From a virus (taxonomy: Duplodnaviria > Heunggongvirae > Uroviricota > Caudoviricetes): DNA of 16,682 nt. The stretch lies in IMG/VR virus record IMGVR_UViG_2671180643_000014. One strand, given 5' to 3'. The first letter of the stretch is position 1; every line of letters starts with the position of its first letter. The notes under the pieces were generated by a model, which saw nothing but the letters and a program-made list of their open reading frames with translations, had not been told where the DNA came from and did not search any database. Made by a program: the position numbers and the translations under genes. Below, one piece after another: positions 7,728-7,752 of the stretch.

Positions 7728-7752
7728 TTGTTCGTGGTTGTTCCACGTTGTT
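7728..7752. promoter_or_regulatory. Copy B of repeated motif (ttgttcgtggttgttccacgttgtt), upstream of the head/packaging operon
   Basis: Exact reverse complement of 1298-1322. Overlaps a weak candidate promoter (-35 TTGTTC 7748-7753, -10 TATTTT 7770-7775). Confidence 0.5.

What the first reader, a model, noticed from the sequence alone, without database searches (positions are those of the whole stretch)
7728..7752. One motif at three strategic positions: after int, before the head operon, and at the right junction
The 25-mer ttgttcgtggttgttccacgttgtt (7728-7752) recurs as an exact reverse complement at 1298-1322, between int and alpA. A shortened version, ttgttccacgttgtttca, lies at 15083-15100, about 120 bp downstream of the phoQ stop. 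The motif holds a CGTGG-N5-CCACG palindrome and TTGTTC direct repeats. An exact 25-nt repeat is not expected by chance in 16.7 kb. It could be an operator for an island activator such as AlpA, or integrase arm/core sites. If the island circularises, copy C would sit upstream of int.
Basis: seen in the sequence. Interest (0 to 1): 0.55.

Follow-up and report, generated by a model that had tools for sequence, protein, structure and literature searches.

The report
Phased AlpA-type binding arrays in a satellite
The repeated 25-mer is part of runs of TTGTTC units spaced one DNA turn apart, probably where this phage satellite's small AlpA protein lines up on DNA to cut the island out and switch on its own gene and its capsid genes.

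Summary
The exact 25-mer lies at 7728-7752(+) and 1298-1322(-), and its 15-mer core at 15083-15097(+); none is expected by chance. The window is an EcCIEDL933-type capsid-forming PICI inserted at the 3' end of phoQ.

The conserved feature is not the CGTGG-N5-CCACG palindrome. It is a run of 3-6 direct repeats, TTGTTC(C/G)nnn, exactly 10 bp apart. In 78 related islands such runs occur in four places only:
- both att arms, the second one upstream of int and outside the window;
- the int-alpA spacer, inverted;
- the promoter region of the HK97-type capsid operon.

In each att arm the run abuts a doubled 12-mer, GGTGTAGTnnnn x2. That 12-mer covaries perfectly with the integrase N-terminal arm-binding domain, so it is the arm-type site and the TTGTT runs are not.

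Unit, phase and placement match the mapped TorI sites of prophage KplE1 (GTTCG cores, 10-bp phase) and the operator logic of dual-purpose excisionase/regulators (186 Apl, P2 Cox, P4 Vis). AlpA is the island's only protein of that fold.

Best reading: AlpA binding arrays that couple excision, alpA autoregulation and capsid-operon control. This is inferred, not shown. It is a new member of a known kind.

The parts
1273..1322 (-). Array A. Five direct-repeat units in exact 10-bp phase, read on the minus strand: TTGTTCGTGG TTGTTCCACG TTGTTTCACA TTGTTCGCCG TTGTATCTGT.
   Evidence: It was found, with 3-6 units in the same phase and orientation, as 74 arrays among the 78 scanned loci, 76 of which carry this AlpA allele. 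The spacer bases vary.
1533..1552 (-). Two further phased units on the minus strand (TTGTGTCGTA TTGTTCCCGC). They overlap the -10 of the best-conserved promoter-like site upstream of alpA, TTGCCA 1515-1520 / N17 / AACAAT 1538-1543.
   Evidence: The TTGCCA-N17-(A/C)ACAAT arrangement is kept in the divergent islands L006 and L007. A two-unit match alone is close to chance expectation.
1596..1784 (+). alpA: 62 aa, GTG start. It encodes the proposed binder, a small winged-helix excisionase-type protein.
   Evidence: - Pfam PF05930, E 5e-17.
- AF2 model with pLDDT 86.5.
- Best PDB fold match is the GIsul2 excisionase 8c3t (TM 0.79/0.85), followed by the RdfS and Pukovnik Xis excisionases and MerR-type wHTH proteins.
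- 58/62 residues identical to the EcCICFT073 AlpA studied in PMC6092414.
7707..7757 (+). Array B. Three strong units, TTGTTCGTGG TTGTTCCACG TTGTTCACTG (7728-7757), are preceded by two weak TTGT units at 11-bp steps (7707-7727). It sits between a terminator hairpin (7688-7705) and the capsid-operon promoter region.
   Evidence: It is conserved upstream of the HK97-type capsid operon at 28 loci, including a second leader variant whose downstream sequence is unrelated. It is absent from classical PICIs with lambda-type capsid genes.
7773..7800 (+). Candidate capsid-operon promoter: TTTACC-N16-TATTCT. It places array B at about -50 to -100.
   Evidence: Read from the sequence. The same geometry (array, 13-15 nt, TTTAC(C/A)-N16-TAT(TC/GT)T) holds in both leader variants. 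The site falls below the consensus scanner's threshold. No TSS is known.
15073..15102 (+). Array C. Three units, TTGTGTCTAT TTGTTCCACG TTGTTTCATA, in the right att arm, 13 nt upstream of the doubled arm-type motif.
   Evidence: The same module (units, 13 nt, doubled 12-mer) lies upstream of int in related loci as array D, at L001 2912-2951.
15116..15139 (+). Doubled 12-mer GGTGTAGTTAAT GGTGTAGTCAAT: probable integrase arm-type sites. It is not part of the TTGTT motif, but together with it forms the att-arm module.
   Evidence: It covaries perfectly with the Int N-terminal domain: TTAAT/TCAAT against TCACT/TCATT types. Its geometry matches the HE-PICI doubled motif (PMC10111431).
15214..15223 (+). 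att core GGACATATTT, the direct repeat shared by attL and attR. It overlaps the phoQ stop codon and marks the island's right end.
   Evidence: the longest repeat shared between junctions in L001 and L012. The island homology in tqsA-site relatives ends at about 15193.
1..1230 (+). int: tyrosine integrase with an N-terminal arm-DNA-binding domain. It is the recombination partner of the proposed AlpA complexes.
   Evidence: Pfam PF13356 plus PF00589.

Best explanation
The motif is a segment of recombination-directionality-factor (RDF) type binding arrays. These are head-to-tail runs of the unit TTGTTC(C/G)nnn, one helical turn apart. The island's 62-aa winged-helix protein AlpA is proposed to bind them cooperatively as a short filament.

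- **att arms.** Array C in the window, and array D upstream of int, sit next to the integrase arm-type sites. There the filament would bend the DNA and help Int assemble the excisive complex.
- **int-alpA spacer.** Array A, plus two units over the alpA promoter, would mediate the known AlpA autoregulation.
- **Capsid operon.** Array B, at about -50 to -100 of the capsid-operon promoter, would put the captured HK97-type head and packaging genes under AlpA control, most likely by activation.

**Shown here:** the anatomy, its restriction to these four contexts, and the exclusion of Int, the replication protein, PerC and orf100 as binders.

**Inferred:** that AlpA is the binder, and the sign of regulation at each promoter.
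For: **Phase and restriction**
- Chains of three or more units occur only at these sites in the window: 3 observed against 0.0015 expected.
- In 78 related loci, 154 of 156 chains fall in four contexts.

**Selection is on the units**
- TTGT and the 10-bp register are kept in islands whose int-alpA region is only 74-78% identical.
- Positions 8-10 vary and the palindrome breaks.

**att-arm module**
- Both arms carry units, then 13 nt, then a doubled 12-mer.
- The doubled 12-mer covaries with the Int arm-binding domain; the arrays do not.

**Match to mapped RDF sites**
- The KplE1 TorI sites I3-I5 read ACAGTTCGTC ATGGTTCGCT TCAGATCGTT. They have the same 10-bp phase and the same GTTCG core (PMC2951348).
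- AlpA and TorI align at 29% identity over 42 aa, E 6e-5.

**AlpA fold**
- AlpA has the excisionase winged-helix fold.

**Published function**
- A 94%-identical AlpA activates the alpA promoter region. It suffices for excision and replication of EcCICFT073 (PMC6092414), which carries arrays D, A and C.
- An alpA mutation abolishes cf-PICI induction (bioRxiv 10.1101/2022.09.08.507074).

**General rule for RDFs**
- RDFs bind direct repeats one turn apart and need about three adjacent sites.
- Apl, Cox and Vis use the same kind of arrays at promoters far from att (PMC7498355).

**Allele test**
- Arrays are present in 71/76 loci with this AlpA allele.
- They are present, as TTGTTCG units, with the 58%-identical allele.
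- They are absent from 0/43 HE-PICIs with a third allele (recognition helix ANSTRWKLEK), although those share the att geometry.
Against: - No binding data exist for AlpA on any of these sites. The assignment rests on exclusion and analogy.
- The third-allele islands show no alternative array, so the covariation is negative only.
- Int and DUF4222 also diverge in those islands.
- AlpA did not affect a Pint fusion in EcCICFT073, although array D lies upstream of int (PMC6092414). The arrays therefore do not always regulate transcription.
- Array A is inverted and lies more than 200 bp from the candidate alpA promoter, which is not a classical activator position.
- The promoters are predictions below the scanner's threshold.
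- TTGTTC x3 arrays also occur in unrelated viral contigs. One family lies next to a Prim-Pol/helicase gene and looks like iterons, so the motif type is not diagnostic of AlpA.
- In PICMI satellites AlpA overexpression changed no transcripts (PMC10803314).
Confidence: 0.65

Rival explanations
1. The arrays are bound by a protein not encoded by the island, not by AlpA. Candidates are a helper-phage excisionase or the still-unknown phage inducer of alpA, or a host nucleoid protein.
For: - Helper phages switch on alpA by an unknown factor (PMC6092414).
- Excisionase cross-talk between a PICI, an ICE and a phage has been shown (PMC11773190).
- Array A sits upstream of alpA, where an inducer could act.
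- TTGTTC-phased arrays exist in many unrelated viral contigs.
Against: - alpA expression alone, without phage, gives excision and replication of an island with the same arrays (PMC6092414).
- The arrays track the AlpA allele: present with two alleles, absent in 43 HE-PICIs.
- No phage in INPHARED matches the array B region.
- I know of no E. coli host factor with a 10-bp-phased TTGTTC site (own knowledge).
Confidence: 0.12
2. The motif is a set of integrase arm-type sites.
For: Copies C and D lie in the two att arms within about 150 bp of the core. Int has an arm-DNA-binding domain.
Against: - The neighbouring doubled 12-mer switches between GGTGTAGT(T/C)AAT and GGTGTAGTCA(C/T)T in perfect step with two variants of Int residues ~10-45. 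The TTGTT arrays are identical in both groups.
- Arrays A and B are 1.3 kb and 7.7 kb from the attL core.
- The HE-PICI relatives keep the arm geometry without TTGTT arrays.
Confidence: 0.05
3. The motif is a palindromic operator (CGTGG-N5-CCACG) for a dimeric island regulator such as PerC or the orf at 7375-7677.
For: The palindrome is perfect in the window's copies A and B. Copy B lies just downstream of the PerC-like gene.
Against: - The palindrome is intact in only 6/74 int-alpA arrays, in 0/52 att-arm arrays, and is broken in the second capsid-leader variant (CCAGG).
- Copy C has one half only.
- L007 has the arrays but no PerC. EcCICFT073 has PerC but no array before its capsid gene. L001 lacks orf100.
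Confidence: 0.04
4. The arrays are iterons or accessory sites for the island's replication protein, or sites for another conserved island protein such as DUF4222.
For: Similar TTGTTCC arrays lie directly after a Prim-Pol/helicase gene in unrelated viral contigs. DUF4222 is present in nearly all array-bearing islands.
Against: - The island's origin downstream of the primase gene has its own, different iterons: GGTAGAGGG, at least 10 copies, 6048-6278.
- The arrays are unchanged between islands with a D5-type primase and islands with a RepA-family helicase.
- DUF4222 is only 36% identical in second-allele islands that keep TTGTTC arrays, and it has no known DNA-binding fold.
Confidence: 0.04

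Closest known systems
TorI (RDF) binding sites I1-I5 in attL of prophage KplE1/CPS-53 of E. coli K-12
   Same: - The sites are direct repeats with a GTTCG-type core in 10-bp phase (I3-I5: ACAGTTCGTC ATGGTTCGCT TCAGATCGTT, PMC2951348).
- They form two blocks in attL between the core and an outward-facing int gene whose promoter lies in attL.
- The binder is a ~65-aa winged-helix protein, and the RDF doubles as a transcription regulator.
   Different: - TorI does not reach the Pfam PF05930 threshold and is only 29% identical to AlpA.
- TorI sites are described only in attL, and there TorI represses int.
- Here arrays lie in both arms and at two promoters far from att.
- The closely related AlpA did not affect Pint (PMC6092414).
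Apl of coliphage 186, Cox of P2 and Vis of P4: dual-purpose RDF/transcription regulators
   Same: - One small HTH protein binds 10-11-bp-spaced direct repeats both at att and at promoters elsewhere. It needs about three adjacent units (PMC7498355).
- Cox can activate a satellite late promoter.
- P4 Vis is the AlpA homologue of another satellite family.
   Different: - In those phages the remote arrays sit between face-to-face lytic and lysogenic promoters and mostly repress.
- Here one array precedes a structural (capsid and packaging) operon and another is inverted in the int-alpA spacer.
- The unit sequences differ.
Lambda Xis sites X1-X1.5-X2 next to Int arm site P2
   Same: Head-to-tail binding on phased repeats immediately beside arm-type Int sites. 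The expected result is bending and cooperative Int recruitment.
   Different: Lambda has a single block in one arm and Xis has no transcriptional targets outside att. Here both arms carry the block, in the same orientation.
Doubled motif tgTGTATTGCa x2 of helper-embedded PICIs (PMC10111431)
   Same: It is the counterpart of the neighbouring GGTGTAGTnnnn x2 motif. Both are 12-bp tandems, co-oriented, one per arm. The 51-bp asymmetry is the same: 81/132 bp there, 91/142 bp here.
   Different: The sequence differs. That paper reports the motif as unique to HE-PICIs and leaves its binder open between Int and AlpA. Here it covaries with Int. HE-PICIs lack the TTGTT arrays.

Membership tests
RDF (Xis/TorI/Apl/Cox-type) binding arrays | Tandem direct repeats spaced one helical turn (10-11 bp) apart | tested here: met
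   The spacing is exactly 10 bp in arrays A, B and C and in D of related loci.
RDF (Xis/TorI/Apl/Cox-type) binding arrays | Three or more adjacent units, as cooperative binding requires | tested here: met
   There are 5, 3(+2) and 3 units in the window, and 3-6 units in 154 arrays of related loci.
RDF (Xis/TorI/Apl/Cox-type) binding arrays | Located in att arms beside integrase arm-type sites | tested here: met
   Array C lies 13 nt from the doubled 12-mer at 15116-15139, and array D has the same layout upstream of int. The arm-site identity of the 12-mer is supported by covariation with Int.
RDF (Xis/TorI/Apl/Cox-type) binding arrays | The element encodes a small winged-helix RDF | tested here: met
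   AlpA is 62 aa and matches PF05930. Its model matches excisionases 8c3t, 8dgl and 4j2n.
RDF (Xis/TorI/Apl/Cox-type) binding arrays | The RDF binds and bends these sites and is needed for excision | not testable with these tools
   Only the literature bears on this. alpA is required and sufficient for excision of EcCICFT073, whose AlpA is 58/62 identical (PMC6092414). No binding data were found in four literature searches.
Dual-purpose RDF/regulator operators (186 Apl, P2 Cox, P4 Vis) | Arrays of the same unit and spacing at promoters away from att | tested here: met
   Array A lies in the int-alpA spacer and array B upstream of the capsid operon, with the same unit as the att arrays.
Dual-purpose RDF/regulator operators (186 Apl, P2 Cox, P4 Vis) | The protein changes transcription from those promoters | not testable with these tools
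   AlpA activates a PalpA fusion in EcCICFT073 (PMC6092414). The capsid promoter has not been tested anywhere I could find.
Integrase arm-type sites | The sequence covaries with the integrase arm-binding domain and is confined to att arms | tested here: not met
   The arrays are identical across the two Int N-terminal variants, whereas the neighbouring 12-mer switches with them. Arrays A and B are far from att.
Palindromic operator of a dimeric regulator | The inverted-repeat symmetry is conserved among homologous sites | tested here: not met
   The palindrome is intact in 6/74 int-alpA arrays and in 0/52 att-arm arrays, and it is broken in the second leader variant.
Replication-origin iterons | The repeats lie next to the rep gene and change with the initiator type | tested here: not met
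   The origin iterons are GGTAGAGGG at 6048-6278. The arrays are unchanged between primase-type and RepA-helicase-type islands.
Pseudomonas AlpA / Q-type antiterminator loading site | A Q-like multi-helix protein with a ring that enters the RNA exit channel, and a single binding element between -35 and -10 | tested here: not met
   The island's AlpA is 62 aa with only the winged-helix module. Pseudomonas AlpA has eight helices, contacts DNA through residues 128-142, and uses a single GGGACG element (PMC9371919).

The most novel reading that the evidence does not exclude
A single 62-aa filament-forming protein is the whole switch of this satellite family. The same AlpA array cassette serves three roles:
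- as the excision site in both att arms;
- as the autoregulatory site;
- in capsid-forming PICIs, as a portable AlpA-responsive module placed in front of a captured HK97-type head and packaging operon.

On this reading the arrays are how a phage morphogenesis module was brought under satellite control. AlpA is then both the excisionase and the late-gene activator, which would settle the regulator-versus-excisionase dispute.
Probability: 0.4. Interest if true: 0.6.

Novelty: new member of a known kind. Interest (0 to 1): 0.45.

Why it matters
PICI papers disagree on whether AlpA is a transcription activator, an excisionase, or both (PMC6092414, PMC10803314, PMC11773190, PMC10111431). None that I could search gives a binding site. 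None says how the capsid operon of capsid-forming PICIs is switched on.

The arrays give a concrete, mutable DNA target at four defined places. Both roles could therefore be tested separately with simple gel shifts, reporter fusions and excision PCR.

The work also separates the integrase arm sites from the RDF sites in this attP. It extends the 'doubled motif' attP architecture beyond helper-embedded PICIs.

For engineered PICI 'drones', the array-promoter cassette would be a defined AlpA-responsive control element.

Tried and rejected
- **Pseudomonas-type AlpA antitermination.** I considered this for the terminator-rich capsid leader. I rejected it because that AlpA is a much larger Q-like protein with a single GGGACG element.
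- **Primase-based scan of genome contigs.** It returned only 3 loci. The Serratia and Morganella islands (L004, L005) are too distant to compare arrays.
- **BLAST of the array B leader against phages.** No match.
- **Unbiased IMG/VR scan for TTGTTC-N4 x3.** It did show that the motif type is not unique.
- **Column-wise footprint of the int-alpA spacer.** It was not discriminating. The whole spacer is well conserved, and unit-register shifts disturb the alignment.
- **Unit matrix.** Positions 1-4 are fixed by the way the arrays were collected, so only positions 5-10 are informative.
- **Allele-specific unit preference.** Position 7 is mostly C with this AlpA allele and mostly G with the second. 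The difference is suggestive only, because register ambiguity contaminates the unbiased scan.
- **A leftward promoter after array A,** by analogy with array B. None was found on reading the sequence.
- **Promoter P1** (TTGTTC 7748 / N16 / TATTTT 7770), which overlaps the last unit. It is not conserved in the second leader variant, so I prefer P2, though P1 is not excluded.
- **PDB code 8c3t.** It has no searchable paper.

Full report
**Observation.** The 25-mer TTGTTCGTGGTTGTTCCACGTTGTT is present exactly at 7728-7752 (+) and as a reverse complement at 1298-1322. No match appeared in 200 dinucleotide-preserving shuffles, even with three mismatches allowed. Its 15-mer core TTGTTCCACGTTGTT recurs exactly at 15083-15097, and a two-mismatch copy lies at 1288-1302. 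That is four matches against 0.07 expected.

**What the window is.** These genes run rightward:
- int (1-1230);
- a 62-aa AlpA-family gene (1596-1784);
- a D5-type primase, SSB and a PerC homologue;
- an HK97-type capsid, protease, portal, head-closure, connector, HNH, TerS and TerL operon.

phoQ follows on the opposite strand. The same island lies between roxA and phoQ in many E. coli genomes. It corresponds to EcCIEDL933, the published prototype of capsid-forming PICIs: 15.4 kb, with int/alpA/rep as in EcCICFT073 (bioRxiv 10.1101/2022.09.08.507074). Relatives inserted in tqsA share homology up to window position ~15193. The 10-bp direct repeat GGACATATTT shared by the two junctions lies at 15214-15223 and overlaps the phoQ stop codon. 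Copy C is therefore inside the island, 111-141 bp from its right end.

**Anatomy of the motif.** The 25-mer is a fragment of longer arrays of a 10-bp unit in exact phase.

| Array | Position | Units |
|---|---|---|
| A | 1273-1322 (-) | TTGTTCGTGG TTGTTCCACG TTGTTTCACA TTGTTCGCCG TTGTATCTGT |
| B | 7728-7757 (+) | TTGTTCGTGG TTGTTCCACG TTGTTCACTG, preceded by two weaker TTGT units |
| C | 15073-15102 (+) | TTGTGTCTAT TTGTTCCACG TTGTTTCATA |

Chains of three or more TTGT units at 10-bp spacing occur nowhere else in the window, and 0.0015 are expected per shuffled window.

A fourth array (D) lies just outside the window, upstream of int: TTGTTCCAGC TTGTTTCACG TTGTAGCCCT TTGTGCAACG (L001 2912-2951). 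Both C and D are followed by a doubled 12-mer, 13 nt after the third unit. In the window this is GGTGTAGTTAAT GGTGTAGTCAAT at 15116-15139. Each att arm therefore carries the same cassette in the same orientation. The doublet centres lie 91 bp left and 142 bp right of the core centre.

**Comparative evidence.** I collected these relatives:
- annotated E. coli islands (L001-L003, L006-L010);
- EcCICFT073 itself (L012);
- 69 IMG/VR loci whose AlpA is 87-98% identical.

In 78 loci there are 156 chains of three or more units:
- 74 are array A, always on the minus strand, 250-500 bp upstream of alpA;
- 52 abut a GGTGTAGT doublet in an att arm;
- 28 precede an HK97-type capsid operon;
- 2 are oddities.

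In islands whose int-alpA spacer is only 74-78% identical (the L006 and L007 types), array A keeps five or six units in register while the bases at unit positions 8-10 change. The CGTGG-N5-CCACG palindrome survives in only 6 of 74 A arrays and in none of the att-arm arrays.

Array B is kept, together with the preceding TTTTGTAAATTAT, in a second capsid-leader variant whose downstream sequence is unrelated. Classical PICIs with lambda-type capsid genes (L007, L009, EcCICFT073) have arrays in both arms, and most have one upstream of alpA, but none before the capsid gene. Selection thus acts on phased units, and array B is specific to capsid-forming islands.

**Who binds.**
It is GGTGTAGTCA(C/T)T whenever they read KLHGKPAEKNTFYSDGGNLSVKYLTSGKL. 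There are no exceptions, and one recombinant follows its N-terminus. The TTGTT arrays are the same in both groups. The doublet is therefore the arm-type site.
- *The replication protein is excluded.* The origin downstream of the primase gene has different iterons, GGTAGAGGG at 6048-6278. The arrays are unchanged between primase-type and RepA-helicase-type islands.
- *PerC and orf 7375-7677 are excluded by distribution*.
- *orf104 and SSB are unlikely.* They are 76% and 68% identical in islands that lack arrays.
- *AlpA remains.* It matches PF05930. A confident model (pLDDT 86.5) has as its best structural neighbours the GIsul2 excisionase 8c3t (TM 0.79/0.85), MerR-type winged helices, and the RdfS and Pukovnik Xis excisionases.

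The strongest positive clue comes from prophage KplE1. The experimentally mapped binding sites of its excisionase TorI have GTTCG/GATCG/GTCCG cores, and sites I3-I5 are 'separated by 2 nucleotides' (PMC2951348). In the K-12 sequence they read ACAGTTCGTC ATGGTTCGCT TCAGATCGTT. That is the same 10-bp phase and the same core as the PICI units. TorI and AlpA align at 29% identity (E 6e-5).

The allele test agrees:
- this AlpA allele carries TTGTT arrays in 71 of 76 loci;
- a 58%-identical allele (L009 type) carries TTGTTCG arrays in the arms, a minus-strand array upstream of alpA, and array B where the island is capsid-forming;
- 43 helper-embedded PICIs with a third allele (recognition helix ANSTRWKLEK) have none, although they keep the doubled arm motif at the same positions.

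**How it most likely works.** RDFs bind head-to-tail to direct repeats one turn apart, need about three adjacent sites, and bend DNA. Apl, Cox and Vis use like arrays at att and at distant promoters (PMC7498355; PMC11963761). By that logic:

1. *Excision.* AlpA filaments on C and D, beside the Int arm sites, would shape the excisive intasome. This fits the finding that alpA alone triggers excision and replication of EcCICFT073 (PMC6092414). That island carries arrays D, A and C, and its AlpA differs from the window's at 4 of 62 residues.
2. *Autoregulation.* Array A and two further units at 1533-1552 would mediate the published AlpA autoactivation. The two units overlap the -10 of the conserved TTGCCA-N17-(A/C)ACAAT element. 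The geometry is unusual: array A is inverted and more than 200 bp upstream. The mechanism here is the weakest part of the model.
3. *Capsid operon.* Array B lies just after a terminator hairpin (7688-7705). It is 13-15 nt upstream of a weak promoter-like element, TTTACC-N16-TATTCT (7773-7800), whose geometry is conserved in both leader variants. That puts the units at about -50 to -100, an activator position. I infer that AlpA activates the capsid and packaging operon. An alternative promoter overlaps the last unit (TTGTTC-N16-TATTTT) and would imply repression. It is not conserved in the second variant.

**Comparison with what is known.** The arrays work like TorI, Apl, Cox, Vis and Xis sites, and they meet every sequence-level criterion of that kind. 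Binding and bending cannot be tested here. They are not integrase arm sites, not a palindromic operator, not iterons, and not a Pseudomonas-AlpA loading site (see the membership table). The neighbouring doublet is the counterpart of the tgTGTATTGCa x2 motif, which PMC10111431 reports as unique to helper-embedded PICIs. The same 51-bp asymmetry holds here: 91/142 bp against 81/132 bp. The covariation with Int answers that paper's open question of whether Int or AlpA binds it, at least for this clade.

**Novelty and limits.** I found no paper that gives an AlpA binding site or a capsid-operon promoter for PICIs. The searchable library covers only open-access papers and bioRxiv. The kind of element is well known, and this is a new member with a useful twist: an array in front of a structural operon. 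Everything about binding and the direction of regulation is inference. TTGTTC-phased arrays also occur in unrelated viral contigs, some of them next to a Prim-Pol/helicase gene. The motif alone therefore does not identify AlpA. A helper-phage or other protein binding these sites cannot be excluded.

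Noticed in passing
window 15116-15139 (and L001 2955-2978, upstream of int): A doubled 12-mer, GGTGTAGTTAAT GGTGTAGTCAAT, occurs once per att arm, co-oriented. It covaries perfectly with two variants of the Int N-terminal arm-binding domain. It has the same 51-bp asymmetry around the core as the TGTATTGC doublet that PMC10111431 calls unique to helper-embedded PICIs.
   Followed up: yes
window 15214-15223: The att core GGACATATTT is shared by both junctions and overlaps the phoQ stop codon, so the island inserts at the very 3' end of phoQ. 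EcCICFT073 uses the same site. Relatives with near-identical int use tqsA (core ATAACAGCA) or the abg/smrA region (AATATCGTGA).
   Followed up: partly
window 2898-2947 and 3015-3102 (+): Rfam finds a C4 antisense RNA (RF01695, 72.6 bits) and its a1/b1 target sites (RF03163) next to the Icd-like genes. This is a P1/P7-type RNA immunity module inside the satellite.
   Followed up: no
window 6048-6278: A dense set of at least 10 GGTAGAGGG-type repeats in both orientations lies downstream of the primase gene. It is probably the replication origin with its iterons.
   Followed up: partly
window 14669-14706 (+): A second, unrelated 10-bp-phased array, GTGAC x4 (GTGACGGAGA GTGACAACCA GTGACACACC GTGACAAAAA), follows the small orf 14324-14605. 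It is also present after the homologous orf in the classical PICI L007. Binder unknown.
   Followed up: no
window 7807-7969 (+): The capsid-gene leader folds unusually well (-68.5 kcal/mol, z = -4.4). It ends in a 7-bp GC-rich hairpin followed by U8 that abuts the capsid ATG (7969) and buries the AGGA Shine-Dalgarno. This hints at attenuation or translational control. The second leader variant lacks it.
   Followed up: partly
window 1248-1263: A perfect 16-bp palindrome, CAGTATGCGCATACTG, lies between the int stop codon and array A. It is conserved in one lineage of islands and replaced in the EcCICFT073/L006 lineage. No function assigned.
   Followed up: no
window 7133-7327 (+): A PerC-family (Pch-like) gene sits immediately upstream of the capsid promoter region. 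It is present in many but not all related islands, and it does not track the TTGTT arrays.
   Followed up: partly
L001 2841-2890 (upstream of int, outside the window): A further core-proximal run of phased GTTT(C/T) units (GTTTTTTGCC GTTTCATAAT GTTTCAGATT GTTCACTATG) lies 20-70 bp from the attL core. It recalls the two-block layout of the TorI sites in KplE1 attL.
   Followed up: no
L163 9586-9611 and about 16 similar IMG/VR contigs: Four phased TTGTTCC units followed by an inverted GGAACAAC lie directly after a 777-aa Prim-Pol/helicase gene with a C-terminal winged helix. They look like origin iterons built from nearly the same unit.
   Followed up: partly
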